DNA of 64,000 nucleotides from an uncultured Chloroflexia bacterium (GTDB lineage Bacteria; Chloroflexota; Dehalococcoidia; Dehalococcoidales; RBG-16-60-22), in contig CAVSFE010000002.1 of assembly GCA_963727315.1 (NCBI GenBank), forward strand, positions 215,560-279,559, written 5' to 3'. Positions 15,470 through 38,452 of the stretch are shown here, in pieces; the stretch's first letter is position 1, and each line of letters opens with the position of its first letter. Both the position numbers and the translations under genes were made by a program. The notes under the pieces are model-generated. The model was not told the DNA's origin and did no database searches. It saw nothing but the letters and a program-made list of their open reading frames with translations.

Positions 15470-16906
15470 ATGGCAAGAAATACCATGGTGAAAACGATTA
15501 GAGAACGCGCGAGAGATACCAAAGTCATCCGTGAAGCCGATGTGGTAGTCGTCGGCGGCGGACCGGGCGGCATCGGGGCCGCCATCTCGGCCGCCCGCAA
15601 CGGCGCGGATACCGTTCTCATCGAGCGCTACGGCTACCTCGGCGGCATGGGCACCGGCGGTCTCGTCACCTTCATCCCCCAGTTGACCGACTACACCGGC
15701 AAGCAGCAGATTGCCGGCATCACGCAGGAGTGGATCGACCGCCTTATCGCCCGCAACGCCGTGGACATGCCTAAAAAAGAGCACTGGGGCTCCCTGGACA
15801 AGGAGCTTGTCCGCTACTATTTCCAGCGCAGCTTTTTCATGACGCGCCTCGACCGCGTGGTCTACGCCGCCATCATCGATGCCGAGGTCTCCAAGTTTAT
15901 CCTCAACGAAATGGTGGAAGAGGCTAAAATCAAGGTCTATTGCCATGCCTGGGGCACCGAGCCTATCATGGAGGGCAACCACTGCAGGGGCGTCATCATC
16001 GAGAGCAAGTCCGGCCGGCAGGCTATCCTGGGCAAAATCGTTATCGATTCCACCGGCGATGGCGACCTCTTCCCCTACGCCGGCATCGAGTTCGAAGATA
16101 ATATCCCGCCCAACTTCCGCATCGCCAACCTGGCTTTATGTTTCTGGGTTGCCGGCGTCGACCTCAAGAAGGCGATGGAGTTCCGCCAGAACAACCCGAA
16201 GGAATTCATGGAGTTGAACCGCAAGGCTATGGAATACGGCGGCCAGGGAGGCTTTATGCCCAGCAACCTGCCCAATCAGGACGCGGTCGTCTGGTTCCAC
16301 AACCGTTTCCCCAACAAGAGCCAGGTAGACGTCGAGGAGCTTACCCGCGTCGAGTTCGAAGGCCGCAAAAAGGCGATAAAGACTGCCGAATTCTTTAAAA
16401 AGAACGTGCCGGGTTTCGAAAAGAGCTTTATTGTACTTACCGGCCCGCAGCTGGGCACCCGCTCCAGCCGCCGCATGGTCGGCGAGTACCAGCTCACCGA
16501 AAAAGACCTGGCGGACAATCAGCCGTTCGAAGATACCATCGCTATCTTCCCCGACCTTGACCGCGGCCAGGAGTCGCTGGACCATCCCAACATGTACATC
16601 CCCTACCGCTGCCTGCTGCCCAAGAACGTGGACAACTTCCTGGTGGCCTGCCGCGCCTTTTCCTCGGACATGCACGTCCAGGACTACTTCAACCTCATCC
16701 CGCACTGCATCGCCTTCGGCGAGGCCGCCGGCGCGGCGTCGGCCATGGCGCTCAGCGCCGGCGTGGGTGTTAAGGACGTGGATATCAAAGCCCTGCAGAA
16801 GCAGCTCGCCAAGCAGGGCGTGCCGCTGCCGGATATGAAGAAAAAGGTGGACTATAAGTATAAAGGGCCGGCGCTGGTCGGGCCGGCGTTTACACCGCCA
16901 CATTAA
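15470..16906 (+). CDS. FAD-dependent oxidoreductase (FAD_oxidored-type), substrate unknown
   Basis: 478 aa with GGAGGAG upstream. N-terminal dinucleotide fold VVVVGGGPGGIGAAISAARNGADTVLIERYGYLGGMGTGG. IDSTGDGD block. Confidence 0.8.
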   Translation: MARNTMVKTIRERARDTKVIREADVVVVGGGPGGIGAAISAARNGADTVLIERYGYLGGMGTGGLVTFIPQLTDYTGKQQIAGITQEWIDRLIARNAVDMPKKEHWGSLDKELVRYYFQRSFFMTRLDRVVYAAIIDAEVSKFILNEMVEEAKIKVYCHAWGTEPIMEGNHCRGVIIESKSGRQAILGKIVIDSTGDGDLFPYAGIEFEDNIPPNFRIANLALCFWVAGVDLKKAMEFRQNNPKEFMELNRKAMEYGGQGGFMPSNLPNQDAVVWFHNRFPNKSQVDVEELTRVEFEGRKKAIKTAEFFKKNVPGFEKSFIVLTGPQLGTRSSRRMVGEYQLTEKDLADNQPFEDTIAIFPDLDRGQESLDHPNMYIPYRCLLPKNVDNFLVACRAFSSDMHVQDYFNLIPHCIAFGEAAGAASAMALSAGVGVKDVDIKALQKQLAKQGVPLPDMKKKVDYKYKGPALVGPAFTPPH

Positions 16907-16920
16907 ACAGGGCGAGTTCA

Positions 16921-18323
16921 ATGACAGCCCAAAAAACTATTACCGAATCCTCCCGCAAACTTAAAGTAATCCGCGAAGTGGACGTGGTCGTGGTGGGGGG
17001 CGGACCGGGAGGGGTCGCCTCGGCCATCAGCGCGGCGAGAAACGGCGCCAAAACCGTCCTCATCGAAAGATACGGGCACCTCGGCGGCATGGCCACCGGC
17101 GGCCTGATCAATATTTTCCCCAACCTGAGCGATATCAGCGGCAAGCAGCATATCTTCGGGCTCACACAGGAAATCATCGACCGCCTGGACAGGCGCGGCG
17201 GGGCTTCGTATCCCCGTAAAGAGGACTGGGGCACCACCGACCCCAAAGTGGTCGATTACTATCTTAATGCCAATCTCGGTTTTTTCTACGTGCGCAAAGA
17301 CCCCAACCGCGGCGGTAAACAGGCAGTGCTTTATACCGCCGTCATCGACCCCGAGATACTTAAGGACGAGCTCAACGATATGGTGCTGGGGGCAGGGGCG
17401 GAGCTTTTCCTGCATTCCTGGGGCACGCAACCTATCATGGACGGGGATACGGTCAAGGGCGTTATCTTCGAGAGCAAGTCCGGGCGGCAGGCGATCCTGG
17501 GCAAAGTCGTTATCGACGCCACCGGCGACGGCGATATCTTCGTGGCGGCCGGCGCCGACTTCGACGCTACCCTGAACAACAAATACCGCTCCGCCTGGCT
17601 GGCTTTCACTTTCTGGGTGGCCAACGTGGACATTAAAAAATACGAGGACTTCCAGGCTTCGCAGCCGGAAAAACACAAGGCACTGATGGACGAGCTTTTA
17701 AAGCTCGGGCGGCTATCCGCGTTTCTTTAAAGGCGTCCTGGAAAACCAGTCCGGCGTGCTCTGGTACCACTGCATGCAGCCGCAGCCCAACCCCACCGAC
17801 GCCATGGACGTAGAGCAACTGACGCAAATAGATATCAAAGCCAGAAAACGCGCCCTCATCACCCACGATTTCATGAGGAAGAACGTCCCCGGATTTGAGA
17901 AGTGCTTCGTCATGCAGACCGCCCCGCAGCTGGGCACGCAGGGAGGCCGCCGCGTTACCGGAGAATATACGCTTACCCAGGATGACATCGTCGCCGACCG
18001 GGTCTTCGAGGACACGATTGCCGTCCTCGCCAATAACGATTTAGGAGAAATTTCCGCCAGGCACCCGACTCTCTGCGTCCCCTACCGCTGCCTGGTACCC
18101 GAGGAAGATTGAAGGACTGCTCGTTGCCTGCCGGGCTTTCTCCTCGGAGGACAGCATCAACCAGTATTTTAATATCATCCCGCCCTGTCTTTGCTACGGC
18201 CAGGCCGCGGGAACGGCGGCCGCCTTAGCCGTCAAAGCCGGCATCCCGCCGCGAAAAGTGGACTATAAAGCCCTGCAAAGGAGCCTCATCAAACAGGGCG
18301 TGAATCTGCCTAAGAGCAAATAA
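16921..18323 (+). pseudogene. FAD-dependent oxidoreductase paralog, two frame breaks as assembled
   Basis: Collinear with 15470-16906 (VVVVGGGPGGVASAISAARNGAKTVLIERYGHLGGMATGG, IDATGDGD, NVPGFEKCF, YRCLVP, LVACRAFSS). The frame changes near 17712 and 18107. The stop is at 18321-18323. Confidence 0.8.
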
Positions 18324-18928: not shown

Positions 18929-18974
18929 ACATCAGAAAATAAGCTTAGCGCGGAAAGGCAAACTCTTGGGGGTG

Positions 18975-21779
18975 ATGATGAATAGTCCGGAACCGAGAGA
19001 TACCGCAATTCCGGTGCCTGATGAAAGCGAATACAAAGAGGGCGACCGGGTAGCCAAGGTCTGGCTGCTGTTTTCCGCGCTGTGGTTCCCTTTCTTCGCA
19101 GCTTTCGGTTTTCTTCTGGCGATCAAGTTCTTCTTTCCCACCTTTCTCAGCGACGCGGCGTGGGACACCTTCGGGCGCATCCGACCTTCCCACGTGAACG
19201 GCGTCCTCTTCGGCTTTGTTTCCTCCGGACTGATCGGGGCGATGTTCTGGATTACGCCGCGCCTGTGCGCGCGGGGGCTTTACCGCGCCAAGCTGGCCCT
19301 GGTGACCCCGTTCCTCTGGAATTTCGCCGTACTGGGGGGAATCATCTGGATTCTTTTCGGCGGCAGCCAGGGCCGGGAGTACGCCGAGCTTCCCTGGGGC
19401 ATCGATGTAGCGGTCATGGTCGCCCTGGGGCTAAACGCCTACATCATCTGGGGCACCGTTATCAAACGCCGAGAAAAGAAGCTGTACGTGTCCCTATGGT
19501 ATTACCTGGGGACGACCATCTGGTTTCCCATTGTGTATTTTATCGGGAACGTCATGTGGAAGCCCCCGGAAGGCGCCCTCAACGGGACGACCGATGCCGT
19601 CTTTAACTGGTACTACGGTCACAACGTATTAGGCCTGTGGTTTACCACGCTGGGCATCGCCGCCTGGTACTACTTCATTCCCAGGATGATAAAAAGGCCG
19701 CTTTACAGCCACCTGCTTTCGTTAATCGCCTTTTTCAGCATCGCCTTCTTTTATACCGGGGTCGGCGGGCATCACCTGCTGCAGTCGCCCATACCCGAGT
19801 GGCTCAAGACCATCGCCGTCACCATGACCGTCCTGATGATGGTCCCGGTGCTCGCCTTCCTGGTCAATATCGGCCTCACGATGCGCGGGTCGTGGCACCG
19901 ATTGATCGGCAACACGGCCCTGCAATTCGTCTTCGCCGGTTTCGTGATGTACGTGCTGGTCTCGATACAGGGCACATTGCAGGGACTCAGGAGCACCAAC
20001 GCCTATCTTCACTTCTCGCAGTGGCCGGTGAGCCATTCGCACCTGGCCCTGCTGGGGGGATTCGGCTTCCTGGTGGCGGGCATGGCCTATTTCCTGGTGC
20101 CGCGCATTACCGGGTTCAAACTCTACAGCCAGAAACTGATGCGATGGAGCTGGTGGCTCGCCTTTATCGGGTTCTTTTCCTTCTTCGCCTCCATGGTGGT
20201 CACGGGGCTCCAGCAGAACGCCAACTGGTACACGCACATCAATGTCGTGGAGACCCTGCCGACCCTGACGACGGACCTGGTCTGGCGGGCCATTTCCGGT
20301 GGGGTCATCGTTATCGCCGCTATCCTCTTCGCCTACAACATTTTAGTCACCCTTTTCCGCCGCGGCGAGGCCCACGAGGAAGAGCACATCGAGGTTATTC
20401 CGCCGATTTCCAACAAGCCCCATTCCGGCTTCCTGCGCCGCAGCCAGGAACACCTGAACGTGCCGATTATTATCGGAGGAGGACTGGCGGTATTTTCCGT
20501 CATGACCTTCATGGTCGTGGCGATGCCCTACATGTTCTCGGCGGACGCCCCCAGCTGGAGGGCGCACGAGCTGACCGCGCAGGAGCAGGAGGGGCAGGCT
20601 GTCTATAAGAGCATGGGGTGCTTCTACTGTCACAGCCAGTTCATCAGGCCGCAGGACTGGGCGATGGGCTATACCTCCCAGGCAGGGGACTTTTATTTTT
20701 CTATTCCCAACTTCCTCGGCACGGAGAGGACGGGCCCCACGCTGGGGCAGATAGGCGGCAAGCGCCCCACGGAATGGAACGTGCAGCATATCAAAGACCC
20801 GCGCTCGGTCTCGCCGAGCTCCATCATGCCTTCGTTCGGAGATTTTCTCACAGATACCCAGCTGGAATCGCTCGTGGCCTACCTCGATACCCTGGGCAGC
20901 GAAGACCTGGAGACCCGCGACTTCCAGCAGCCGGTGCCGTACGAGTTCCGTTTCAACGAAAACCCCAACCTGCCGCTGATGACGCTGGTCGAGGCTGGCT
21001 ATGATAGTGAGAACGACACCTACTCCGGCCCCCAGGCGGAGGGAGAACAGTGGGGCACGCTTTTCGATGAGGGTAAAGCCCTCTTCACGCAAAAATGCCT
21101 TTCCTGCCACGGTTGTTCTGGGAACGGGCAGGGCCCCTACGCCCGCCAGACGGTCACCCGTCCGGCCAACCTGAACGAGAGGATATCGAATTTCCCGGAG
21201 ACCAACCCGGAAGCCTTCCATTACTGGCGTATCTTCGAAGGGGTGCCGGGCACCGCCATGCCTTCCTGGGGCCTGAGCCTGGACGAGGACACCATCTGGA
21301 AGATAGCTACTTATGAAATGAGCTTCGCCCAGGGCTCCATCAGGACGATCGACGGGAGCGTATCGGATGACGAGGGCGACCAGTTCGACGCCGAGACTCA
21401 CCCCATGCCATTGATAGCCGGCACCCTGGAGGATTTCGACAAGGGACAAGCCCTCTATGCGCTTTACTGCGCCCAGTGCCATGGCGCCGACGGACACGGC
21501 GACGGTCCCGCTTCCATCGCCACAGACGGAGGCTATATCCGGCCCGAGCCAGCCAATTTCGAGGAGAGCGGCGGGGACTTCACCAACTACGGCCGCTGGG
21601 TCTGGAAGGTCACCGAAGGCGTGGAGACGACGAACATGCCGCCCTGGAAATACGCCCTGAGCCCGGAGGAAATATTCCAGGTCATCTTCTACGAGCAGAG
21701 TTTTTCCACGCGTGACGATTATATCAATAAATGGGCGCCTCTATACACCGACACCTTCGCCCGGGATTTGAAGGGGTGA
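18975..21779 (+). CDS. ccoN: cbb3-type cytochrome c oxidase, fused CcoN + CcoO + dihaem cytochrome c (CcoP-like) polypeptide
   Basis: CcoN ligand blocks HVNGVLFGF, WYYGHNVLGLW, GVGGHHLL, SHSHLALLGGFG. CcoO part CFYCHSQ…TGPTLGQIGGKR…IMPSF. Two more CxxCH sites (CLSCHGC…MPSW, CAQCHGADG…MPPW). The ORF is open from a TTG at 18966. Confidence 0.85.
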   Translation: MMNSPEPRDTAIPVPDESEYKEGDRVAKVWLLFSALWFPFFAAFGFLLAIKFFFPTFLSDAAWDTFGRIRPSHVNGVLFGFVSSGLIGAMFWITPRLCARGLYRAKLALVTPFLWNFAVLGGIIWILFGGSQGREYAELPWGIDVAVMVALGLNAYIIWGTVIKRREKKLYVSLWYYLGTTIWFPIVYFIGNVMWKPPEGALNGTTDAVFNWYYGHNVLGLWFTTLGIAAWYYFIPRMIKRPLYSHLLSLIAFFSIAFFYTGVGGHHLLQSPIPEWLKTIAVTMTVLMMVPVLAFLVNIGLTMRGSWHRLIGNTALQFVFAGFVMYVLVSIQGTLQGLRSTNAYLHFSQWPVSHSHLALLGGFGFLVAGMAYFLVPRITGFKLYSQKLMRWSWWLAFIGFFSFFASMVVTGLQQNANWYTHINVVETLPTLTTDLVWRAISGGVIVIAAILFAYNILVTLFRRGEAHEEEHIEVIPPISNKPHSGFLRRSQEHLNVPIIIGGGLAVFSVMTFMVVAMPYMFSADAPSWRAHELTAQEQEGQAVYKSMGCFYCHSQFIRPQDWAMGYTSQAGDFYFSIPNFLGTERTGPTLGQIGGKRPTEWNVQHIKDPRSVSPSSIMPSFGDFLTDTQLESLVAYLDTLGSEDLETRDFQQPVPYEFRFNENPNLPLMTLVEAGYDSENDTYSGPQAEGEQWGTLFDEGKALFTQKCLSCHGCSGNGQGPYARQTVTRPANLNERISNFPETNPEAFHYWRIFEGVPGTAMPSWGLSLDEDTIWKIATYEMSFAQGSIRTIDGSVSDDEGDQFDAETHPMPLIAGTLEDFDKGQALYALYCAQCHGADGHGDGPASIATDGGYIRPEPANFEESGGDFTNYGRWVWKVTEGVETTNMPPWKYALSPEEIFQVIFYEQSFSTRDDYINKWAPLYTDTFARDLKG

Positions 21780-28520: not shown

Positions 28521-29018
28521 TCAGTCCCTTTGCTTGCCGTCGGCGTCAATAAAAACCATCTTGTCCCGTAGTTCGCGGGCGACCAGTTTTTTCAGAGCGG
28601 TCTCGGTCAGTTTCGGCGCGTACTGGCACTGGATGAAGAGGAAGGGCCGGCGCACCTTTAATATCCGGAAAGGGGCATGGATGAACCTGGCCGGTATCCA
28701 TATCATCGTGGACTCGCTGACGATATGGCTCTCCATCTCCGGCCCCATGCACATTTCCATGTCCGCGCCCAGATCTCTCGGATGAGACGGGTCGGTCCCC
28801 AGCGCCACGAGCAGTTCGGGGTCGTTATGGATATGGGGGCCGTGACCGGCGTGCTTCGTCGCTTCCTCGCCCATCCACATCACGGAAAAATATTTACTGC
28901 CTTCGATGATACCAGCGTCGGTAAAGGCGACCATCGAGGGCATGCGCCCGAAACCTTTCTTCCGCTGCGCTTCGGGGAGCTCATTAAGGAAGTACTGGCT
29001 GTATTTCAGTTCTGCCAT
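28521..29018 (-). CDS. Cupin-fold metalloprotein, function unknown (paralog 3)
   Basis: 165 aa. N-terminal LKYSQYF as in 83-571. Motif 1 is HGPHIHNDPELLVALG (HxHxxxE-x6-G) and motif 2 is a variant, PARFIH. Confidence 0.7.
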   Translation of the reverse strand: MAELKYSQYFLNELPEAQRKKGFGRMPSMVAFTDAGIIEGSKYFSVMWMGEEATKHAGHGPHIHNDPELLVALGTDPSHPRDLGADMEMCMGPEMESHIVSESTMIWIPARFIHAPFRILKVRRPFLFIQCQYAPKLTETALKKLVARELRDKMVFIDADGKQRD

Positions 29019-29066
29019 GTTACATTAACCTCCGGCATAATCACAACAGTTTCTGGATTGATTCAG

Positions 29067-29297
29067 TTAGCCCTTAGTAATCGCCTTGGCGGGGCACCAC
29101 CATTCGTGGGAGAAACAGACATCGCACCCGGTGCATTTTTTCGTATCTATTCTCGTCGTATAGAGGGTCAGGCCGTCGCTTTCGATGACCTTTTTAACCA
29201 CCATGATAGCTTTCTCCGGGCACTGGGTAACGCACAAGCCGCACTTAAGACATTTTTTCGTATCTATTTTATAAGCCATGCCGGTTACGGCCATCAT
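29067..29297 (-). CDS. 2x[4Fe-4S]-type ferredoxin
   Basis: 76 aa with CLKCGLCVTQCP and CTGCDVCFSHEWWCP cysteine clusters. Confidence 0.8.
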   Translation of the reverse strand: MMAVTGMAYKIDTKKCLKCGLCVTQCPEKAIMVVKKVIESDGLTLYTTRIDTKKCTGCDVCFSHEWWCPAKAITKG

Positions 29298-29443
29298 GCC
29301 CTCCTTTCATTTCATTGTCCTGAATGTTATCGCAACGCGATGATAGCTGTCAAACAGGCATACCGGGCACGTTTGACATCATCCAGCCTAATAGATAGAC
29401 TACTGGTAAGGTTAATTTCCGACGATTTCACAAAGGAGACAAA

Positions 29444-30544
29444 ATGAAAGTCAAAGCGGCCATCTGTAACGAACTCGGGAAGCCTTTATCGATGGAGGAA
29501 GTGACTCTGGACCCGCCGGGAAAGGGCGAGGTAAAAATAAGAATGGCGGCGACGGCCATCTGCCACAGCGATATCCACGCCTTCAAGGGGGAGCACGGCG
29601 ATATCCAGCTGCCGGCCATCGCCGGTCACGAGATATGCGGCTACGTCGAGGAAACCGGCGACGGCGTCACCTACGTCAAACCCGGCGATAAAGTGGTCGC
29701 CAGCATCATACCGGAGGGCTGCGGGCAGTGCTACTATTGCCGCATCGGCCTTGGCAGCCAGTGCACCACCAACCGACTCTATCTGATAGGGAAAGGGAAA
29801 TATGTCAATAAAAAAGGCCAGCGCATCACGCAGTACGCCGGCGCCGTGGCCGGCTTCGCCGAATACGCCACCATCCCCGAGGTCAACCTGGTGAAAGTGC
29901 CGGAGGACCTGCCCGTAGACCGGGCGTGCCTGCTCGCCTGCGGGGTTATCTCGGGGTTCGGGGCGGTGCTGTACCGCGCTAAGGTCACGGCCAACAGCAG
30001 CGTCGCCGTCATCGGCTGCGGGGGAGTCGGGCTCAACGCCATCCAGGGGGCGGTCTTTGCCGGGGCTTACCCGGTCATCGCCGTGGACGTGCGCGACAAC
30101 AAGCTGGAAACGCGCTAAAGTCTTCGGCGCGACGCATACGGTCAACGCCAAAACGGAAAAAGACCCCATTAAGAAGGTGCACGAGCTTACCTACGGTCGC
30201 GGGGCGGATACGGTCATCGTGGCGGTGGCGGGCATAGAAATCCTGCGCCAGGGGTTCATGATGTCGGCGCGGGACGGCACTACGCAATATTATCGGGCAC
30301 GGCTTCGGCGAGCAGATGTCCGCTTTCACGCCGCTGGACTTCATGGCGGGCAAAAAGCTCACCGGCAGCGCGATGGGGGCGGTAAGGCTCCGGATAGATA
30401 TCCCCCGCCTGATTGAGCTGTACAGAGTCGGCCGACTCAAGCTGGACGAGCTTATTTCCGGCCACTATCCGCTTCGATAAGATTAACGAGGCGCTGGTAT
30501 CATCGGAAAAGGGCGACGTGATACGCAACGTGATTATGTTTTGA
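29444..30544 (+). pseudogene. Zinc-dependent alcohol dehydrogenase (MDR family), three frame breaks as assembled
   Basis: ICHSDIH, GHEICGYVEETG, CGQCYYC, GCGGVGLNAIQGA. Continues in other frames as AKVFGATHTVNA…, IIGHGFGEQMSAFTP… and DKINEALVSSEKGDVIRNVIMF. Breaks are near 30110, 30285 and 30474. Confidence 0.8.
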
Positions 30545-30610
30545 AACCGGATTCGTTATTCGTTTTTTACAATTTTTTTGTTAACGTTCACGTTCGATTC
30601 ATTCGTAAAT

Positions 30611-30677
30611 ATTCGTTTTTCGTTTTATGTTAAATCAGCTTCAAAATCGGGGATTCGTTTTTCGATTTATGTTAAAT
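30611..30677. repeat. 25-nt direct repeat (2 copies, 24/25 identical) in an AT-rich intergenic region
   Basis: ATTCGTTTTTCGTTTTATGTTAAAT (30611-30635) and ATTCGTTTTTCGATTTATGTTAAAT (30653-30677). Further ATTCGT(T/A) units lie at about 30551 and about 30601. Confidence 0.8.
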
Positions 30678-30758
30678 AGCGAACATCCCTTGCTTACAGC
30701 TCAAAGTTTCTAGTATAAAGAGACTGCCAGAAAAAAGAAATGGGATTTTGTCACCGAC

Positions 30759-31157
30759 CTAAGTAAAGCCGGTAGTCGTGCCGTACATCCAGCCTTCGAT
30801 GACCTTGCCGTTCTTCAAACGGAAAAGCCAGAGCTCGTTGGCGACGACCTCTTGACCCTTTGCTGGCGGCAGGCCGGGAATTCGCCCGGTAAAATTCTCG
30901 TGGCCGCTATATAAAAACCCGACGAGGTTGCCTTCACCCGTTAGATATTTAATATCAAAGCGGATATCGGAAAATGCCTTCCGCGCGGCGGTGATAAACT
31001 GTTTATGCGCCTCCCGCCCTACAACGTCCGGCAGCGGAGGCGTTAAATGATAGACGACATCGGTGTTTTCAACTTCATCCAGGGCATCGACGTTGCCCTT
31101 AATCCATGCCTCGTTTTCAGCTTTAATAAATTTTTCCGCGAAATTTTTAGTGTTCAT
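30759..31157 (-). CDS. SnoaL-like / NTF2-fold protein (ester-cyclase-like)
   Basis: 132 aa with GGAGG upstream. The pattern (…AWIKGNVDALDEV…DVVYH…GREAHKQFI…LWLFRLKNGKVIEGW) is typical of SnoaL-type polyketide-cyclase-fold proteins. Confidence 0.6.
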   Translation of the reverse strand: MNTKNFAEKFIKAENEAWIKGNVDALDEVENTDVVYHLTPPLPDVVGREAHKQFITAARKAFSDIRFDIKYLTGEGNLVGFLYSGHENFTGRIPGLPPAKGQEVVANELWLFRLKNGKVIEGWMYGTTTGFT

Positions 31158-31348: not shown

Positions 31349-33063
31349 TTGAACAAGGTTGCGGAAATAACGCTGGCTTCCGATGCCCCCGGCGCCACGC
31401 TCTTCATGCTCGGCAACGAAGCCATCGCCCGGGGGGCTATCGAGGCGGGCGTGCAGGTGGTGGCGGCCTATCCCGGCACGCCTTCGAGCGAAATCACCGA
31501 GACGCTGGTGAACAACGCCAAAATCACCGGCATGTACGCCGAGTGGTCGATTAACGAGAAGGTCGCCCTGGAAGTAGCCATGGCCGGCGCCATGAGCGGC
31601 CTGCGCTCGCTGGCGATTATGAAGCATGTCGGCGTGAACGTCGCCCACGACGCCCTGACGTCCGCCAGCTATATGGGACTCGGCGGCCTGGTGCTCATTT
31701 CCGCCGACGACCCCGGCCAGTGGAGCTCGCAGAACGAGCAGGACAACCGCTACATCGCCCGCCAGTGCTATATACCGGTGCTGGAGCCCGCGACCGCGCA
31801 GGAAGGCAAGGACATGATGGTCGATGCCTACCGCCTTTCCGAGGAGTTCGGGCAGATGTTCATGCTGCGCTCGGTGACGCGCATCGGCCACGCCCGCAGC
31901 GACGTCGTGCTGGGCGGGATAGAGGGGCAAAAGCGCCAGGGGAAGTTCACTAAAGACTTCCAAAGGCTGGTGTGCCTGCCGGCCAATTTCCGCGTCAACC
32001 GCCGGCATGGTCATTCAAAGAATGGCGAAAATAAAAGACGTCGTGGACACCCTGCCGTATAACCACATAACGCTTAAGAAAGGCGCCAAATTGGGCGTCA
32101 TCGCCAGCGGCATTTCCTACGGCTACGCCGTGGAGGCCATACGGTGGATGGGACTAGAAGAAAAAATTTCCGTGTTGAAAATAGGTACGCCTTACCCGCT
32201 GCCGGTAAAAATGACGCAGCAGTTTTTAAAGTCCGTGCCGGAGGCGCTGGTGGTCGAGGAGCTTGAGCCTTTTGTCGAGGACGGCGTCAAGGTCATCGCC
32301 AAGGACAGCGATATCAGCGTGAAAATCCACGGCAAGGACGTCATTCCCCTGGCCGGGGAGCTATCGACACGGCAGGTCGCCGAGGCTTTGAGCAAGCTGA
32401 CCGGAGTCAAGCCGCCGATGGATTTCGCGGAGATTGATAAATTAAGAGAAGAAACGGCGGCGCTGTTGCCCTTCCGCCCGCCGACCATGTGCGCCGGCTG
32501 CCCGCACCGGGCTTCCGCCTACGCCATCAATATCGCCATCCGGCGCTACCAGCAAGAGACCGGCATCGAGCCGGTAAAGACCGGCGACATCGGCTGTTAC
32601 GCCCTCTCCGCCAACCCGCCGCTGAACGCGGACGACGTCGCCATCTGCATGGGCGGCGCTTTCGGCCTCGCCAACGGATTCGCCCACGTTCAGGACGCGC
32701 CGGTGGTGGCGCACCTGGGCGATAGCACTTTTTTCCACTCCGGCATCCCGCCGATGATTAACGCCGTCTATAACAAAGCCAACGTGACCATGGTCGTGAT
32801 GGACAACTCGACCACCGGCATGACGGGTTTCCAGCCGCACCCCGGCGCCAGCGGCGACGTGGCTTCGACATAAAAATAGAAGATATCGCCCGCGCCAGCG
32901 GCGTCAAGATGGTGGAGGTCGTTGACGCCTTCGACCTGCCAAAGCTTATCGACGTCCTGGAGAAGGCGATAAAATTTAAAGGGCCTTCGGTCATCGTCGC
33001 CCGCCGGCTCTGCAATATCCTCGACCAGCGGGAGAAACGAAAAGCCGGCGAAAAGACCGTCTC
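31349..33063 (+). pseudogene. iorA: Indolepyruvate/2-oxoacid:ferredoxin oxidoreductase alpha subunit (TPP part), frame breaks as assembled
   Basis: GNEAIARGAIEAGVQVVAAYPGTPSSEI, MCAGCPHRASAY, TGDIGCY, HLGDSTFFHSGIPPMINAVYN, MTGFQPHPG. Frame changes are near 32000 and 32858. A TTG start follows AGGAGG. Confidence 0.8.
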
Positions 33064-33065
33064 CT

Positions 33066-34647
33066 TATGTGGTCGATACCGGAGAAATGCGTGGCGGGCA
33101 GTCCGCCGGCCTGCCAGGCCACCTGCCCCCTGCATATTGATATCCGGGGATATATCGCCCTGATAAAAGAGGGCAAGTTCGACGAGGCGCTGGCGCTCAT
33201 CAAAAAGACCCTGCCCTTCCCCGGCATCATCGGCCGGATCTGCACGCGACCCTGCGAAGGCAAGTGCGTGCGGAGGGAGGTCGAGGAGGCGATAGCCATC
33301 AACGCCCTCAAGCGCGCGGCGACCGAATACGGGAAATATACGGAAGATTACACCATCGCCGCGGAAAAGAAAGAGCGGGTGGCGATTATCGGCGGGGGAC
33401 CGGCCGGCATGATGGCGGCCTACGACCTGCGCAAGGCCGGCTATAAAGTAACTATCTTCGAAGCCCTGGATAAGCTGGGCGGGATGATGGCGGTGGGCAT
33501 CCCCGAGTTCCGGTTGCCGCGGAATATTCTCCAGTGAAGAAACGGATATTATTAAAAAGCTGGGCGTGGAGATAAAGCTCAACACGAGGGTCGGCAAAGA
33601 CGTTAAACTGGCGGATTTGAGGAAAGACTATGACGCCGTTTTTATCGCCGTGGGCGCTCATAAAGGCAGAAGCCTCGGGCATAGAAAATGAGCATGCCAG
33701 CGGCGTTATCGACGGCACGGAGTTTTTATACAAGGTCAACACCGGCGAGAAAATAAAGACCGAAGACAGGGTGGTGGTGGTGGGCGGCGGCAACGTGGCT
33801 GTCGACTGCGCCCGCACCTGCGTGCGGCTGGGCTTTAAAGACGTGAATATCGTCTACCGGCGCTCCAGGGCGGAAATGCCCGCCATCGCCGAGGAAGTGA
33901 CCGAAGCCGAGCACGAAGGCGTCAAACTGACGCTGCTGTCCGGTCCGAGCAAGGTCGTGCTGAAGGGCGGAAAAGTATCAGGGCTCGAATGCATCAAAAT
34001 GAAGCTCGGCGAGCCGGACGCCAGCGGGACGGAGAAGGCCGGAGCCGATTAAGGGCTCGGAGTTCGTTATCGAGACGGGGCTGATTATCTCAGCCGTCGG
34101 TGAAGAGCCCGACCTCGCTTTCATGGGCGGGGACATGGCGGGGGCGGTCGCCGATGGCCATATCAAAGCCGACCCCGTCACGCTCGCCACCGGCATTAAA
34201 GGCGTCTTCGCCGGCGGGGACGCGGTCACCGGGGCGGCCACGGTCATCCAGGCCATGGCGGCGGGCCGAAAAGCCGCCAGGTCCATCGACAAATACTTCA
34301 AGGGCGAGCCGCTGGACAAAGGGCGTGAAGGCGAAGAGGTCTTCGAGAGCAAGCTCATCGTGGATACCTGGAGCATCTACCAGGAACCGAGGGCGGCCAT
34401 GCCGGCGCTGCCCGTCGCCCGGAGAAAAGGCAACTTCAAAGAGGTCGATTTGGGCCTGACGCGGGAGGCGGCCGTAAAAGAGGCGAAACGCTGCCTCTCC
34501 TGCGACTGCCGTATCTGTATCAATCTGCTCGGCTGCCCCGCCCTGATAACCGAAAAAGGCAAGGTGACGATCGATAGCTCCGGGTGCCCGGGGTGCGGGG
34601 TCTGCGCCCAGGTCTGCCCGCACGAAGCGATAAAAGCAGGAGTGTAA
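33066..34647 (+). pseudogene. GltD/NfnB-like NAD(P)H-dependent FeS flavoprotein module ending in a 2x[4Fe-4S] ferredoxin domain, probably contiguous with iorA; several frame breaks
   Basis: EKCVAGSPPACQATCPLHIDIRGYI, GRICTRPCEGKC, VAIIGGGPAGMMAAYDL, VVVVGGGNVAVDCA, GVFAGGDAVTG, then CLSCDCRICINLLGCPAL…GCPGCGVCAQVCPHEAI. Frame changes are near 33065-33082, 33535, 33672 and 34035. Confidence 0.7.
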
Positions 34648-34648
34648 G

Positions 34649-35263
34649 ATGGCCGCGAAGAACGAGATTAACATCATCATCTGCGGGGTGGGGGGACAGG
34701 GCGTCGTCCTGGTCTCCGAGCTGCTGGGCAATGCGGCGGTGAGGGGCAAAGTGGCGGTCAAGGGCTCGGAAGTGCTGGGGATGGCGCAGCGGGGAGGCTC
34801 CGTGTTCAGCAACCTGCGGCTGGGCGGCGAGGCCATCGCCCCGATGACCCCGGAAGGCAAATGCGATGTCCTCATCGCCGTGGAGCCATCGGAAGCGTTG
34901 AGAAATATTCAATACCTCGCGAAAAACAGCGTGGTCGTCCTCAACACGACGACCGTCCTGCCGTACACCGTCTACCTGGGCAAGAGCGGGTATCCGTCCC
35001 AGGACGAAATAATCGAAAAGCTCCGTAAAGTCACCGACCGCATTATCACGCTGGATGCCAGCGGGCTGGCAAAGCAGGCGGGGAGCCTGCAGGCGGCCAA
35101 CGTGGTCATGCTGGGGGCGCTGTTCGGCACGGGACTCATGCCCGTCAAAGAGGAGACGGCCAAGGAAGCGATACTGGCGCGCTTCAAGGGAAAGGTCGGC
35201 GAGATAAATATCAAAGCCTTCGACCTTGGCTATGAATACATCCAGAAGGCACTCAAGGGGTAG
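34649..35263 (+). CDS. iorB: Indolepyruvate oxidoreductase beta subunit
   Basis: 204 aa. NIIICGVGGQGVVLVSELLG…SEVLGMAQRGGSV, the gamma-type POR domain. Starts 1 nt after the preceding stop. Confidence 0.85.
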   Translation: MAAKNEINIIICGVGGQGVVLVSELLGNAAVRGKVAVKGSEVLGMAQRGGSVFSNLRLGGEAIAPMTPEGKCDVLIAVEPSEALRNIQYLAKNSVVVLNTTTVLPYTVYLGKSGYPSQDEIIEKLRKVTDRIITLDASGLAKQAGSLQAANVVMLGALFGTGLMPVKEETAKEAILARFKGKVGEINIKAFDLGYEYIQKALKG

Positions 35264-35781: not shown

Positions 35782-35953
35782 ACTTGTCCCATTAACTCCT
35801 ACTCTTTTTATACAGTCCTTCAAAGATCAGCGGACAATATAACGATGGTAAGTTGATCACCTTAGTGACTTTCCCCCGATAAGAGGATTAAGCGTCTTGA
35901 CATATATAAACTGTAATTATAGACTTAATCAGCATTTTGGGGAGGTGCTCTCT

Positions 35954-36777
35954 GTGAAGTGCCCGCACTGCCAGGCTGAAAATCCCGAAGGTTCAGAATA
36001 TTGTAGAACATGTGGACAATCGCTGCGGCTTGAAACAGTGTGTCCCAAATGTGGGCATAGTAACCTGCATGATAGTGCGTTCTGCAACAAGTGTGGTCAA
36101 CCCCTGGCAGAAAAGGAACTACTACTCGCCAAACCGTCTTCCCCCTGCCCGCCTCCTTTGCCGGCGGCCGCTATCAGGTCAAGAAGTTTTTAGGAGAAGG
36201 CGGCAAGAAAAAAGTCTACCTCGCCCACGATACCGTACTAGATAGAGATGTCGCCTTCGCCCTCATCAAGACCGAGAAGCTGGACGAAGTCGCCCGCACC
36301 CGCATCAAGCGCGAGGCCCGCGCCATGGGAAAACTCGGTGTAAAACGGCCTGGTAGCGGCACCGCCGAGGATATGACGGCAGCTTATTTGGACAATGCCT
36401 ATCTTGAGGTTGCTGTATTGGTCGGGCATCAGCGGTCTGCCGAGCTGCTATTGAAACGTTTGGTCAAATGCAGCCAGTATAATCTTGAAGGTTCATGCGT
36501 GGCCCGCAATCTGGGCGGGGCGGCAGCACTCTTGGGTAAATATGGAGAAGCCCGCAAATATTACCAAGAAGCCATTAGAATCTGCACGGAGATGAGGTTT
36601 CGCCCGGAGCTTGCTCTCTCTCGCCTCCAGCTTGCCGAGCTTTTGCTGGAGCACTACCCGGATGAGAAAAAGGAAGCATTAGAGCACCTGGACTTTGCCA
36701 TCAGGGAGTTCCGCGAGATGAAGATGCAGCCCTCGCTGGAGCGTGCCTTACGCCATAAGGATATACTGAAAGCATAG
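35954..36777 (+). pseudogene. Relic of a large Zn-ribbon / Ser-Thr kinase / TPR regulator: kinase truncated after the N-lobe, one frame break
   Basis: Double zinc ribbon (CPHCQ…CRTCG, CPKCG…CNKCG). After a break near 36120 the text reads FAGGRYQVKKFLGEGGKKKVYLAHD…VAFALIK (Gly-loop and Lys of a kinase). No HRD/DFG follows, and the sequence jumps to a TPR-like tail (…LLGKYGEARKYYQEAIRIC…). Confidence 0.55.
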
Positions 36778-36982: not shown

Positions 36983-38452
36983 ATGCCAAAAAAGAATGAT
37001 ATTAATAAGAAACTGACCACCGTTGCTGGCGCTCCGGTCCCGGATAACCAGAATACGATGACCGCCGGTCCCCGGGGCCCCGCATTATTACAGGACGTAT
37101 GGTTCCTGGAAAAACTAGGCCATTTTGACCGTGAGGTTATTCCCGAGCGGCGCATGCACGCCAAAGGTTCCGGCGCTTTCGGTAACTTCACAGTTACCCA
37201 CGATATTACCCGCTATACCAAAGCCAAAATCTTTTCCGCCGTGGGTAAAAAGACCGATCTTTTCCTACGATTTTCCACGGTAGCGGGAGAACGTGGCGCC
37301 GCCGATGCCGAGCGTGATATCCGTGGGTTTGCTATCAAGTTCTACACAGAAGAAGGCAACTGGGATTTGGTCGGCAACAATACCCCCGTATTCTTCCTGC
37401 GCGACCCGCTGAAGTTTCCTGACCTGAACCATGCTGTCAAGAGGGACCCCCATACCAATATGCGCAGCGCTCGGAACCAGTGGGACTTCTTCACGTCCCT
37501 TCCAGAGGCACTGCACCAGGTGACCATCGTCATGAGCGACCGCGGTATCCCTTATTCTTACCGCCACATGCACGGATTTGGCAGCCACACTTTCAGCCTC
37601 ATCAATGCCAAGAACGAAAGGCACTGGGTTAAGTTCCATCTCAAAACCCAACAGGGTATTCGTAACCTGACAGATGAAGAAGCCCAGGCAATCATTGCTA
37701 AGGACCGCGAGAGCCACCAGCGTGACCTCTTTGAAAGCATCTCGAAGGGGGATTATCCCCGCTGGACGATGTATATTCAAATCATGCCCGAAAAAGAAGC
37801 AGCGACCTACCTCTTCAATCCATTCGACCTCACCAAAGTCTGGTTGCATAAGGACTACCCATTGATTGAGGTGGGTGTGCTGGAGCTTAACCGCAACCCC
37901 GCAAACTATTTTGCGGATGTCGAGCAAGCGGCTTTCAACCCGGCCAACATCGTCCCTGGTATCGGTTTCTCTCCGGACAAGATGCTGCAAGGTCGGCTTT
38001 TCTCCTACGGTGATGCTCAGCGTTATCGTTTGGGGGTTAATCATCATTTAATTCCGGTCAACGCTCCCCGCTGCCCTGTTAACAGCTTCCATCGCGACGG
38101 CGCCATGCGGGTTGACGGCAACCACGGCAGTACGCTTGGTTATGAACCCAATAGCTACGGCGAGTGGCAACAGCAACCCGATTTTACCGAACCGCCGCTC
38201 AAATTAGAAGGTGCCGCTGACCGGTGGAATCATCGTGAAGATACTGATTACTATACTCAACCGGGTTTACTCTTCCGCCTGATGAAACCTGAGCAACAGA
38301 AAGCACTCTTTGAAAACACCGCTCGTGATATTGGCAGTACGCCGAAAGAAATTAAAATCAAGCATATCAGCCACTGCCTAAAGGCCGACAGGGCTTATGG
38401 CGAAGGTGTCGCCCAAGCTACGGGGATAAAACTTAGCGAAATCCCGAAATAA
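36983..38452 (+). CDS. katA: Monofunctional haem catalase (small-subunit type)
   Basis: 489 aa with GGAGGAGG upstream. [52 protein letters not shown], proximal Tyr region [14 protein letters not shown]. Confidence 0.95.

What the first reader, a model, noticed from the sequence alone, without database searches (positions are those of the whole stretch)
31349..34647. IorA-type TPP subunit appears to have a GltD-like NAD(P)H flavoprotein module spliced into its ferredoxin domain
Reading across the frame breaks gives the following order.
1. 31349-33063 encodes the POR/IOR alpha N-terminal and TPP-binding parts.
2. At 33066-33090 the motif that normally opens the IorA 2x[4Fe-4S] domain (Y-x-V-D-x-E-K-C) is visible as YVVDT / EKCVAG.
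3. The usual CxxCxxC does not follow. The text runs into a GltD/NfnB-type module instead: C-x5-PP-x-C-x3-CP, GRICTRPCEGKC, two dinucleotide folds (VAIIGGGPAGMMAAYDL and VVVVGGGNVAVDCA), and GVFAGGD.
4. Only afterwards (about 34480-34647) does a ferredoxin-like CLSCDCRICINLLGCPAL…GCPGCGVCAQVCPHEAI appear.
5. iorB follows 1 nt later.

GltD-like proteins are the NAD(P)H entry modules of glutamate synthase, NfnAB and SudAB. An OFOR alpha subunit carrying one internally would wire 2-oxoacid oxidation directly to NAD(P)+, or to a bifurcating scheme, instead of to free ferredoxin. As I recall, the phenylglyoxylate:NAD+ oxidoreductase of Azoarcus achieves this with a separate FAD subunit. I do not know of this fused architecture being described.

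Caveat: this stretch has 6-7 frame breaks, and the fusion junction itself needs two of them.
Basis: partly seen in the sequence, partly recalled or inferred. Interest (0 to 1): 0.68.

Follow-up and report, generated by a model that had tools for sequence, protein, structure and literature searches.

The report
Indolepyruvate oxidoreductase with inserted NfnB module
The broken reading frames hide one real gene of about 1,097 residues, found intact in many uncultured Dehalococcoidales, in which a 2-oxoacid (indolepyruvate-type) oxidoreductase carries an NADP(H)-binding iron-sulfur flavoprotein inside its ferredoxin domain, probably so that it hands electrons to NADP+ rather than to free ferredoxin.

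Summary

- **One gene.** 31349-34647 (+) is a single iorA-type gene broken by seven 1-nt indels. More than 100 database clusters, and 31 of the loci fetched from the species-representative genome collection (all uncultured Dehalococcoidales), encode the same ~1,097-aa protein uninterrupted. dN/dS of the repaired gene is 0.05-0.10, the same as between intact copies. Neighbouring genes are also frameshifted. The breaks are therefore most likely assembly errors.
- **The insert.** It is a StnC/NfnABC-type module, circularly permuted relative to NfnB/GltD. It has two [4Fe-4S] sites, FAD and a YRR (NADP(H)) motif. It starts at PPxCxxxCP and ends at EAxRCxxC.
- **Where it sits.** It lies inside the first Cys motif of the IorA ferredoxin domain. 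One Cys (EKC) is upstream of it and the rest are downstream. The C-terminal ferredoxin scores as IorA-type, not as the ferredoxin of stand-alone NfnB-like proteins.
- **Spread.** About 37 of the best 150 representatives (50%-identity clusters) are such fusions, with at least four junction layouts. At least one is from a Deltaproteobacteria MAG.
- **Inferred function.** 2-oxoacid + CoA + NADP+ gives acyl-CoA + CO2 + NADPH. This is untested.
- **Literature.** I found no description of the fusion. A like insertion is described for ANME-1 HdrA.

Verdict: a new variant of a known kind.

The parts
31349..34647 (+). Fused iorA gene (IorA with an inserted NfnB-like module). It has a TTG start and a TAA stop, is interrupted by seven 1-nt indels, and repairs to about 1,097 aa.
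   Evidence: NCBIfam TIGR03336 IOR_alpha scores 706.6 bits against a cut-off of 650.9 on the 96%-identical P0001.
31349..33061 (+). IorA catalytic part: the POR_N domain, the middle domain and the TPP-binding domain (GDSTFFH at 32718-32738). It also holds the four Cys of the TPP-proximal [4Fe-4S]: MCAGCPHR 32487-32510, GDIGCY 32583-32600 and ARRLC 32999-33013.
   Evidence: Pfam. C381, C384, C416 and C555 are invariant in 104 homologues. 57% identical to the canonical IorA P0129 over residues 1-580.
33066..33090 (+). Strand YVVD(P/T)EKC, the start of the IorA ferredoxin domain. Its Cys (33088-33090, C580 in P0001) is inferred to be the first ligand (Ca) of the IorA ferredoxin motif, left upstream of the insertion.
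   Evidence: K579 and C580 are invariant. The canonical IorA has Y-x-V-D-x-x-x-C-x2-C-x2-C-x5-CPA at the same place. The cysteine counts across the fusion layouts agree.
33103..34503 (+). Inserted NfnB/GltD-like module, circularly permuted as in StnC.
- PPACQATCP: NfnB C47 and C51
- GRICTRPCEGKC: C90, C96 and C100
- ALKR Lys: at the NfnB E117 / StnC K170 position
- FAD fold: VAIIGGGPAG
- NADP fold: VVVVGGGNVAVD, with YRR at 33849-33884
- GVFAGGD
- a linker of about 60 aa
- RKGNFKEVDLG...EAKRCLSC: NfnB residues 13-42, including C39 and C42
   Evidence: PDB phmmer: continuous alignment to 9bov_A and 8oh5_C residues 101-569, but split and re-ordered against NfnB 4ylf_B. Foldseek. Pfam Fer4_20 and Pyr_redox_2. 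Residue invariance. Ligand numbering from PMC7596348 and PMC10482914.
34504..34644 (+). Remainder of the IorA-type 2x[4Fe-4S] ferredoxin domain: D-C-RI-C-INLLG-CPAL ... GCPGCGVCAQVCPHEAI.
   Evidence: Local-alignment scores equal those of canonical IorA ferredoxins. 52% identical to the P0129 ferredoxin. Pfam Fer4.
34649..35263 (+). iorB (POR gamma-type, CoA-binding subunit). It is intact and starts 1 nt after the iorA stop.
   Evidence: Pfam POR, 141.7 bits. NCBIfam IOR_beta models score just below their cut-offs. Present directly downstream in 57 related loci.
32004..32006 (+). Frame break 1: a 1-nt insertion (extra G).
32865..32867 (+). Frame break 2: a 1-nt deletion.
33061..33065 (+). Frame break 3: a 1-nt insertion, the first of the two at the junction.
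33077..33081 (+). Frame break 4: a 1-nt insertion, the second of the two at the junction.
33531..33532 (+). Frame break 5: a 1-nt insertion.
33676..33680 (+). Frame break 6: a 1-nt insertion.
34021..34029 (+). Frame break 7: a 1-nt insertion.
28521..31157 (.). Conserved upstream neighbours: a 165-aa protein with no family match (28521-29018, -), a 76-aa 2x[4Fe-4S] ferredoxin (29067-29297, -), a Zn alcohol dehydrogenase (29444-30544, +, three frameshifts) and a SnoaL-like protein (30759-31157, -).

Best explanation
The region encodes one functional alpha subunit of an indolepyruvate-type 2-oxoacid oxidoreductase, followed by its beta subunit IorB. A complete NADP(H)-dependent iron-sulfur flavoprotein module has been inserted into the first cysteine motif of the alpha subunit's own ferredoxin domain. 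The module is the circularly permuted NfnB/GltD type seen in StnC and NfnABC. The seven frame breaks are single-base assembly errors.

**Proposed mechanism**
1. TPP in IorA, with CoA bound by IorB, oxidatively decarboxylates a 2-oxoacid, probably an arylpyruvate.
2. Electrons leave one at a time to the TPP-proximal [4Fe-4S] (C381, C384, C416, C555).
3. They pass through the two clusters of the IorA ferredoxin domain (C580 + C1052, C1055, C1088; and C1061, C1078, C1081, C1084).
4. They move to the module's distal cluster (C1047, C1050, C588, C639), then to its proximal cluster (C592, C631, C635, Lys654).
5. FAD collects two electrons and reduces NADP+ (YRR motif).

Net reaction: 2-oxoacid + CoA + NADP+ gives acyl-CoA + CO2 + NADPH, without free ferredoxin.

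**Shown:** gene continuity, domain identities, the permutation, the insertion site, residue conservation and the IorA origin of the C-terminal ferredoxin.

**Inferred:** which cysteine binds which cluster, the direction of electron flow, NADP+ as acceptor, and the substrate.
For: **Continuity**
- Intact homologues of about 1,097 aa at 61-96% identity and 100% coverage.
- 31 uninterrupted genomic copies in Dehalococcoidales MAGs.

**Breaks are errors**
- All seven are 1-nt indels against intact DNA.
- The neighbouring ADH has three and a FAD oxidoreductase has two.
- Other MAG copies of the gene (for example L040, L048) are frameshifted too.
- dN/dS is 0.05-0.10, as between intact copies.

**IorA identity**
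- TIGR03336 scores above its cut-off.
- 57% identity to the canonical IorA P0129.
- iorB is adjacent in 57 loci, and P0133 even has IorB fused on.

**Module identity and permutation**
- PDB alignments and Foldseek.
- 78 of 86 relatives have EA.RC..C only after the flavin domain and none has it before. Several proteins end right after it.

**NADP(H)**
- Y835, R836 and R837 are invariant. YRR holds the 2'-phosphate in NfnB.

**Probably not bifurcating**
- Lys sits at the NfnB Glu117 position, as K170 does in StnC, whose FAD was shown to be non-bifurcating.
- No NfnA-type gene is among the genes called within 10 kb in L001.

**Insertion inside the IorA ferredoxin**
- Ferredoxin scoring.
- The cysteine bookkeeping holds across layouts: 1+2 in the P0001 and P0134 types, 2+1 in P0123 and P0124, 0+3 in P0132, P0145 and P0148.
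Against: - No member of this fused family has been characterised, and I found no paper on it.
- AlphaFold2 gives pLDDT below 50 for exactly the cluster-binding loops (572-591, 640-648, 1050-1060, 1079-1088) and a pTM of 0.58. The junction topology and cluster-to-cluster distances are therefore not shown.
- BLASTP can also align C1047/C1050 with the first two IorA ferredoxin cysteines, so the ligand assignment is not unique.
- Passing electrons at about -500 mV to NADP+ at about -320 mV discards energy that fermenters usually conserve through ferredoxin.
- A small ferredoxin gene is conserved nearby and could still be the acceptor.
- The frame breaks are unevenly spread. DNA polymerase III alpha, catalase and the oxidase read as single long ORFs, and iorB, SnoaL and the small ferredoxin match their L001 homologues in a single frame. 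A real pseudogene is therefore not strictly excluded.
- Substrate specificity rests on family membership only.
Confidence: 0.68

Rival explanations
1. The locus is a true pseudogene in this genome. The seven frameshifts are real mutations, and the enzyme, together with the neighbouring alcohol dehydrogenase, is dead here, although it works in relatives.
For: - There are ten frameshifts in iorA plus the ADH (about 4.4 kb).
- There are none in iorB, SnoaL, the small ferredoxin or the 165-aa gene next to them.
- DNA polymerase III alpha, catalase and the oxidase read as single long ORFs.
Against: - No in-frame stop codon and no larger deletion.
- 96% amino-acid identity to an intact protein.
- dN/dS of 0.05-0.10 is the same as between intact copies.
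- Every break is a single base.
- Other MAG assemblies of the same gene also carry one to three frameshifts.
- Another, unlinked gene (16921-18311) is broken as well.
Confidence: 0.1
2. This is an end-to-end fusion, not an insertion. An IorA that lost its own ferredoxin domain was joined to a complete stand-alone DsrL/PRK12771-type protein, whose own C-terminal ferredoxin now ends the polypeptide.
For: - NCBIfam NF009410 (PRK12771, 566 positions) matches residues 578-1095 almost end to end, at 509.7 bits against a cut-off of 516.
- Stand-alone proteins of 546-620 aa align over 578-1093.
- Some stand-alone proteins also begin with a strand plus Cys like YxVDxxKC (P0258, P0260, P0245).
Against: - The C-terminal ferredoxin of every single-ferredoxin fusion tested (32 of 33; P0133 gave no regex match) scores as IorA-type, not stand-alone type.
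- It keeps the IorA-specific C-x5-CPA[ILF] spacing and the ID...CxGCGxC...CP..AI motif.
- It is 52% identical to the ferredoxin of the nearest canonical IorA.
- The double-ferredoxin fusions keep a complete IorA ferredoxin after the stand-alone-type one.
- P0258, the only stand-alone protein with an IorA-like ferredoxin, resembles the C-terminal half of P0134-type fusions and may be a fragment.
Confidence: 0.08
3. The inserted flavin is a bifurcating or confurcating site, as in NfnB. The enzyme would couple low-potential electrons from 2-oxoacid oxidation with a second, higher-potential donor or acceptor. Alternatively it would use NADPH plus a second driver to run reductive carboxylation.
For: - The module is 41% identical in the structural alignment to the bifurcating NfnB subunits 4ylf_B and 5jca_L.
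- The Arg of GIPEFRLP is conserved.
- A ferredoxin and two FAD-dependent oxidoreductases are conserved neighbours.
Against: - The closest solved relatives are the StnC/NfnABC type, where this flavin is non-bifurcating.
- Lys replaces the Glu ligand of the proximal cluster, as in StnC.
- No NfnA-like or HydBC-like partner is among the genes called within 10 kb in L001.
- The sequence shows only one iron-sulfur chain leaving the flavin.
Confidence: 0.1
4. The 'fusion' is an artefact of reading across frame breaks, and the window really holds two separate genes, iorA and a gltD-like gene.
For: - An ATG at 33067 opens a 156-aa ORF.
- The junction needs two frame corrections.
Against: - Hundreds of independently assembled intact ORFs span the junction with no stop.
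- The junction residues K579 and C580 are invariant.
Confidence: 0.01

Closest known systems
Canonical indolepyruvate:ferredoxin oxidoreductase IorAB (TIGR03336 / TIGR03334; Pyrococcus and Methanothermobacter type)
   Same: - Same N-terminal, TPP-binding and proximal-cluster parts.
- Same IorA-type C-terminal 2x[4Fe-4S] domain.
- Same adjacent iorB.
- 57% identical to a canonical Dehalococcoidia IorA.
   Different: About 470 residues (581-1051 in P0001) replace the two residues between the first and second Cys of the ferredoxin motif. This adds two more [4Fe-4S] sites, FAD and an NADP(H) site. The predicted acceptor is NADP+ rather than free ferredoxin.
GltD/NfnB-like domain of StnC (8oh5) and of the NfnABC large subunit (9bov, 9n5u)
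   Same: - Best sequence and fold matches (E about 1e-125).
- Same circular permutation: it starts at PPxCxxxCP and ends at EAxRCxxC.
- Same Lys at the proximal cluster.
- YRR/NADPH site.
- It is likewise an inserted domain inside a larger iron-sulfur protein.
   Different: The host protein there is NuoG/FdhF-like and feeds a HydBC-type bifurcating module. Here the host is a TPP-dependent 2-oxoacid oxidoreductase and no bifurcating partner is evident.
HdrA9/10/11 of ANME-1, with a ~500-aa NfnB-like insertion in the ferredoxin domain (Chadwick et al. 2022, PMC9012536)
   Same: The same kind of event: an NfnB-like module interrupts a ferredoxin domain of a larger redox enzyme, and NADPH is proposed as the carrier.
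   Different: The host enzyme is different (heterodisulfide reductase). No sequence comparison with those proteins was made here.
DsrL and PRK12771-type stand-alone NfnB-like iron-sulfur flavoproteins
   Same: - N-terminal two-cluster domain, FAD/NAD(P) domains and a linker of about 60-100 aa.
- EAxRCxxC followed by a two-cluster ferredoxin.
- The YRR rule for NADP(H).
- The DsrL authors noted, and excluded, homologues encoded next to 2-oxoacid:ferredoxin oxidoreductase genes.
   Different: Those are separate polypeptides with their own ferredoxin type (C-x3-CP spacing). DsrL works with DsrAB.
Other 2-oxoacid oxidoreductases wired to pyridine nucleotides: phenylglyoxylate:NAD+ oxidoreductase PadEFGHI of Azoarcus/Aromatoleum, and the eukaryotic pyruvate:NADP+ oxidoreductase of Euglena and Cryptosporidium (own knowledge, not tested here)
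   Same: The functional logic is the same: an OFOR core coupled to a flavoprotein that reduces NAD(P)+.
   Different: Pad uses a separate flavoprotein subunit. The eukaryotic enzyme appends a cytochrome-P450-reductase-type FMN/FAD domain to the C-terminus of a PFOR. Neither inserts an NfnB-type module into the ferredoxin domain.

Membership tests
IOR alpha subunit (NCBIfam TIGR03336, equivalog) | Whole-protein score above the curated cut-off | tested here: met
   706.6 bits against a cut-off of 650.9, in two stretches (18-593 to profile positions 3-565 of 595, plus a second stretch whose coordinates the tool did not list, presumably the C-terminal ferredoxin). Run on P0001, which is 96% identical to the repaired window protein.
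IOR alpha subunit | TPP-binding motif and the four Cys of the TPP-proximal [4Fe-4S] | tested here: met
   GDSTFFH at 32718-32738. Pfam TPP_enzyme_C. C381, C384, C416 and C555 are invariant in 104 sequences.
IOR alpha subunit | C-terminal IorA-type 2x[4Fe-4S] domain (C-x2-C-x2-C-x5-CPA ... C-x2-C-x2-C-x3-CP) | tested here: met
   The domain is present but split by the insertion. The C-terminal part scores like canonical IorA ferredoxins and is 52% identical to the P0129 ferredoxin. That C580 is the first ligand is inferred.
IOR alpha subunit | Adjacent iorB partner | tested here: met
   iorB at 34649-35263 has Pfam POR at 141.7 bits and lies downstream in 57 loci. The beta-subunit equivalog models fall just short (212.6 against 238; 197.1 against 205.8).
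IOR alpha subunit | Arylpyruvate substrate and ferredoxin as acceptor | not testable with these tools
   This needs enzyme assays. The insertion argues that the acceptor differs.
GltD/NfnB-like iron-sulfur flavoprotein module | Fer4_20 two-cluster domain plus an adrenodoxin-reductase-like FAD domain and a NAD(P) domain | tested here: met
   Pfam Fer4_20 at 76.6 bits, Pyr_redox_2 and NAD_binding_8. PDB E-values of 1e-100 to 1e-125. Foldseek.
GltD/NfnB-like iron-sulfur flavoprotein module | Canonical order: EAxRC-x2-C-x4-C-x3-CP at the N-terminus | tested here: not met
   The module is circularly permuted. The segment equivalent to NfnB 13-42 (with C39 and C42) follows the flavin domain. The same is true of 78 of 86 close relatives, and of the aligned sequences of the solved StnC (8oh5_C) and C. 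saccharolyticus Nfn-ABC (9bov_A) chains.
GltD/NfnB-like iron-sulfur flavoprotein module | NADP(H) specificity motif YRR | tested here: met
   IVYRRS at 33849-33884. Y835, R836 and R837 are invariant. The meaning of the motif is taken from PMC7596348.
Bifurcating NfnAB | NfnA partner ([2Fe-2S] plus FAD) and a Glu ligand on the proximal cluster | tested here: not met
   No such gene is among those called within 10 kb in the syntenic locus L001. Lys654 occupies the Glu117 position, as K170 does in StnC.
DsrL | Stand-alone protein in a dsrAB organism, not linked to OFOR genes (criteria of PMC7596348) | tested here: not met
   The module is part of the IorA polypeptide. The presence of dsrAB was not examined.

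The most novel reading that the evidence does not exclude
The permuted NfnB-like unit, whose two ends meet at its distal [4Fe-4S] cluster, behaves as a portable 'NADP(H) plug'. It has been inserted repeatedly and independently into the cysteine motifs of ferredoxin domains: into IorA at three or more different positions (between Ca and Cb, between Cb and Cc, and ahead of the whole domain), into HdrA of ANME-1, and into the NuoG-like StnC. In IorA this would create an undescribed enzyme class, a single-polypeptide 2-oxoacid:NADP+ oxidoreductase with five [4Fe-4S] clusters, TPP and FAD, found in Dehalococcoidales and Deltaproteobacteria MAGs.
Probability: 0.45. Interest if true: 0.7.

Novelty: new variant of a known kind. 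Interest (0 to 1): 0.55.

Why it matters
2-oxoacid:ferredoxin oxidoreductases are normally read in genomes as sources or sinks of reduced ferredoxin. If this common Dehalococcoidales form reduces NADP+ directly, metabolic reconstructions of these abundant soil, peat and sediment bacteria mis-assign their redox budget. They would be crediting ferredoxin-linked energy conservation where there may be NADPH supply instead.

**Annotation.** Automatic annotation hides the difference, because the protein passes the IorA equivalog threshold and is simply named IorA.

**Enzyme design.** The locus is also a clear natural example of domain insertion into an iron-sulfur motif by a circularly permuted module. 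That is useful for understanding, and for engineering, how electron-transfer chains are rewired.

**Testability.** Intact sequences are available for expression, so the prediction can be tested directly.

Tried and rejected
1. **Separate iorA and gltD genes.** Rejected, because intact homologues span the junction.
2. **C-terminal ferredoxin belonging to the GltD-like family.** The PRK12771 profile covering 578-1095 and stand-alone proteins of 546-620 aa made this plausible. Direct scoring of ferredoxin domains and the double-ferredoxin fusions rejected it.
3. **Structure prediction to settle which cysteines share a cluster.** AlphaFold2 gave confident domains but pLDDT below 50 at every cluster loop. 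No coordinates are returned, so the model cannot decide. Foldseek only re-found the NfnB-type hits.
4. **Cluster ligands in the Stn paper.** The text does not give the ligands of the StnC distal cluster.
5. **A second paralogue.** The 1,098-aa ORF at 12099-15395 looked like one by length, but it is DNA polymerase III alpha.
6. **DNA of the closest protein.** P0001 is not on record in the contig index, so L002 and L001 were used to place the indels.
7. **Literature.** Six full-text searches found no description of the IorA fusion.
8. **Neighbour annotation.** NCBIfam on the conserved neighbours returned only generic names for the ADH, ferredoxin and FAD oxidoreductases and no match at all for the two small proteins, so there is no pathway clue.
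9. **Trees.** The neighbour-joining trees have no support values. I use them only as a hint that the fusion arose several times.

Full report
**1. What is in the sequence.**
On the + strand, 31349-34647 breaks into eight in-frame pieces (frames 2,0,2,0,1,2,0,1). Pfam finds:
- POR_N in the first piece
- TPP_enzyme_C in the second
- Fer4_20 plus a dinucleotide fold in 33067-33537
- Pyr_redox_2 in 33630-34052
- Fer4 at the C-terminal end
- POR (the IorB/gamma domain) in the intact ORF 34649-35263

The gene has an AGGAGG 7 nt before a TTG start at 31349, and that TTG start is shared by the eight homologous loci translated. It ends in TAA at 34645-34647, and iorB starts one base later.

**2. The fusion is real and the breaks are errors.**
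The stitched 1,096-aa protein finds more than 110 clusters of intact proteins of about 1,097 aa. These are 61-96% identical at 100% coverage, and sources that name them call them 'indolepyruvate ferredoxin oxidoreductase subunit alpha' from Dehalococcoidales or Dehalococcoidia MAGs.

A scan of one genome per species returned dozens of uncultured Dehalococcoidales genomes with the gene. In 31 of the loci it is a single uninterrupted full-length match.

Evidence that the breaks are assembly errors:
- Aligning the window DNA to two intact genes shows the seven breaks are all single-base indels, six insertions and one deletion.
- The neighbouring alcohol dehydrogenase has three frameshifts and a FAD oxidoreductase at 16921-18311 has two.
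- Other MAG assemblies of this same gene (L040, L048 and others) carry one to three frameshifts.
- dN/dS of the repaired gene against intact copies is 0.05-0.10, the same as between intact copies.

I conclude that the breaks are assembly errors. A very recent pseudogene cannot be strictly excluded, because the breaks cluster in some genes and spare others.

**3. What the insert is.**
The best solved relatives of residues 585-1053 are:
- the large subunit of Caldicellulosiruptor Nfn-ABC (9bov_A)
- Thermococcus sibiricus NfnABC (9n5u_A)
- StnC of Sporomusa (8oh5_C)
- then NfnB (4ylf_B, 5jca_L), GltD and DPD

Against StnC and 9bov the alignment is continuous, chain residues 101-569, and it ends with EAxRCLxC. 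Against T. maritima NfnB it splits. The body aligns to NfnB 46-462. The stretch RRKGNFKEVDLGLTREAAVKEARRCLSC, which in our protein comes after the flavin domain, aligns to NfnB 13-42.

That segment carries Cys39 and Cys42, two ligands of the NfnB distal cluster (numbering from PMC7596348). The insert is therefore a circular permutant of the classical GltD/NfnB module. It begins at PPxC(47)xxxC(51)P and ends at RC(39)xxC(42).

Among the 86 close relatives with the CxxPCExxC anchor, 78 have EA.RC..C only after the flavin domain and none has it before. Several proteins stop a few residues after it. That only makes sense if those two cysteines complete a cluster begun by the N-terminal segment.

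In 104 homologues the following are invariant or at least 90% conserved:
- C588, C592, C631, C635, C639, C1047 and C1050
- both GxGxxG folds
- Y835-R836-R837, the NADP(H) 2'-phosphate motif
- Lys654

Lys654 sits where NfnB has the Glu117 ligand and StnC has Lys170. In StnC the flavin was shown experimentally to be non-bifurcating.

**4. Where it is inserted.**
Canonical IorA ends with Y-x-V-D-x-x-x-Ca-x2-Cb-x2-Cc-x5-CdPA ... I-D-x3-C-x-G-C-G-x-C-x3-CP.

The closest canonical relative is P0129 (636 aa, a canonical-length IorA that groups with the fused Dehalococcoidales clade in the tree; canonical Dehalococcoidia IorA genes match the fused protein at about 60%). It is 57% identical up to YYVDRDVC, and its ferredoxin is 52% identical to residues 1047-1094.

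In the window type the order is: YVVEPEK-C580, then the insert, then EARRC-LS-C | D-C1052-RI-C1055-INLLG-C1061-PAL... One cysteine, Ca, therefore lies upstream of the insert, and Cb, Cc and Cd lie downstream.

The count holds in the other layouts:

| Type | Upstream of the insert | Downstream of the insert |
|---|---|---|
| P0001, P0121, P0134 | Ca | Cb, Cc, Cd |
| P0123, P0124 | two Cys upstream of PxC-x3-CP (Ca-x2-Cb in P0124) | Cc, Cd only |
| P0132, P0145, P0148 | none | a stand-alone-type ferredoxin, then a complete IorA ferredoxin |
| P0126 (the largest group) | an extra 4-Cys motif plus a linker of about 45 aa | a complete IorA motif after RC..C |

Local-alignment scoring settles the origin of the ferredoxin. 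All 32 single-ferredoxin fusions that could be extracted score against 44 canonical IorA ferredoxins just as canonical IorAs score against each other. They score much lower against 12 stand-alone NfnB-like ferredoxins. In the double-ferredoxin proteins the first is stand-alone-type and the second IorA-type.

Because the two ends of the permuted module meet at its distal cluster, it can sit in a loop of the host domain. That also places the distal cluster next to the IorA ferredoxin cluster. This last geometric point is an inference: AlphaFold2 modelled the domains well (mean pLDDT 81) but not the cluster loops or the domain packing (pTM 0.58).

**5. Distribution.**
Among the best 150 representatives of 50%-identity clusters, about 37 are IorA-NfnB fusions of 1,000-1,384 aa.
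- One (P0133) also has IorB fused on.
- At least one of the P0126 type comes from a Deltaproteobacteria MAG, and a P0139-type protein is from Dehalococcoidia.
- In crude neighbour-joining trees of both the IorA core and the module, the fusion types fall into four or five separate clades mixed with unfused proteins. Together with the different junctions this suggests several independent insertions, but the trees carry no support values.

In Dehalococcoidales the neighbourhood is conserved: a small protein with no family match, a 70-76-aa ferredoxin, a second small protein with no family match, a Zn-ADH, a SnoaL-like protein, iorA, iorB and two PF12831 FAD oxidoreductases. None of these gives a pathway clue.

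**6. Most likely mechanism.**
TPP-dependent oxidative decarboxylation of a 2-oxoacid takes place on IorA/IorB. The substrate is arylpyruvate by family assignment only. Single electrons then pass through five [4Fe-4S] clusters: one TPP-proximal, two in the IorA ferredoxin and two of NfnB type. FAD collects them and transfers a hydride to NADP+.

This is a built-in version of what phenylglyoxylate:NAD+ oxidoreductase does with a separate flavoprotein, and what the eukaryotic pyruvate:NADP+ oxidoreductase does with a C-terminal P450-reductase domain (own knowledge).

Bifurcation is the main functional rival. I rate it low because of the StnC-like Lys, the absence of an NfnA or HydBC partner among the genes called within 10 kb in L001, and the single visible iron-sulfur path.

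**7. Comparison with what is known, and novelty.**
- The protein is a member of the IorA family by the curated model.
- Its insert belongs to the GltD/NfnB superfamily but fails the canonical N-terminal order. It belongs to the permuted StnC/DsrL-like branch.
- The DsrL study explicitly set aside DsrL-like genes linked to 2-oxoacid oxidoreductase genes.
- Six full-text searches found nothing on the IorA fusion.

I file it as a new variant of a known kind: widespread in databases, hidden under the name IorA, uncharacterised, and directly testable.

Noticed in passing
window 29444-30544 (+) and 16921-18311 (+): The Zn alcohol dehydrogenase next to iorA is split by three frameshifts, and a PF12831 FAD-dependent oxidoreductase by two. 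Several long genes in the same window read as single long ORFs (DNA polymerase III alpha 12099-15395, the oxidase 18966-21779, catalase 36983-38452). The indel errors are therefore clustered rather than uniform.
   Followed up: partly
window 18966-21779 (+) and 36983-38452 (+): A single 937-aa ORF combines COX1, FixO and two cytochrome c domains, that is a fused cbb3/heme-copper-type oxidase. An intact 489-aa ORF that reads as a catalase (my reading of its sequence; no family scan was run on it) lies 17 kb away. This is oxygen-handling equipment in a Dehalococcoidales genome that also carries an oxygen-sensitive type of 2-oxoacid oxidoreductase.
   Followed up: no
window 15470-18311 (+), compared with loci L003-L054: In almost all related genomes two paralogous PF12831 FAD oxidoreductase genes lie directly downstream of iorB on the opposite strand. 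In this window the pair sits about 13 kb upstream of iorA on the + strand, just after DNA polymerase III alpha, so the region has been rearranged. Their function, and any link to the IorA fusion, is unknown.
   Followed up: partly
proteins P0178, P0183, P0192, P0194, P0199, P0241 and 78 of 86 relatives: The circular permutation of the GltD/NfnB iron-sulfur domain (EAxRCxxC moved behind the flavin domain) is general across this large branch, including proteins that end right after the motif. The DsrL paper reads the missing N-terminal cysteines as Ser/Thr/Arg replacements. The C-terminal RCxxC may be the real ligands there too.
   Followed up: partly
protein P0133 (1,384 aa): This is a triple fusion. 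IorA with the inserted NfnB-like module continues, after its ferredoxin domain, into an IorB-like (POR gamma) domain in the same polypeptide.
   Followed up: no
P0126-type fusions (for example P0126, P0127, P0128): Between the TPP domain and the insert these proteins carry an extra four-cysteine motif (for example CSTCHVTCGEAAC) and a linker of about 45 aa, on top of a complete IorA ferredoxin motif downstream. This hints at a sixth metal site.
   Followed up: no
window 35897-36777 (+): Downstream of iorB lies an ORF with repeated CxxC motifs (a possible zinc ribbon, by eye). It is followed by an ORF that starts like the N-terminal lobe of a Ser/Thr protein kinase (by eye) and jumps straight into TPR repeats (Pfam TPR_12). 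This looks like a truncated or internally deleted multidomain gene.
   Followed up: no
window 31349; loci L001-L009, L036: The fused iorA gene uses a TTG start codon in the window and in all eight homologous loci translated.
   Followed up: partly
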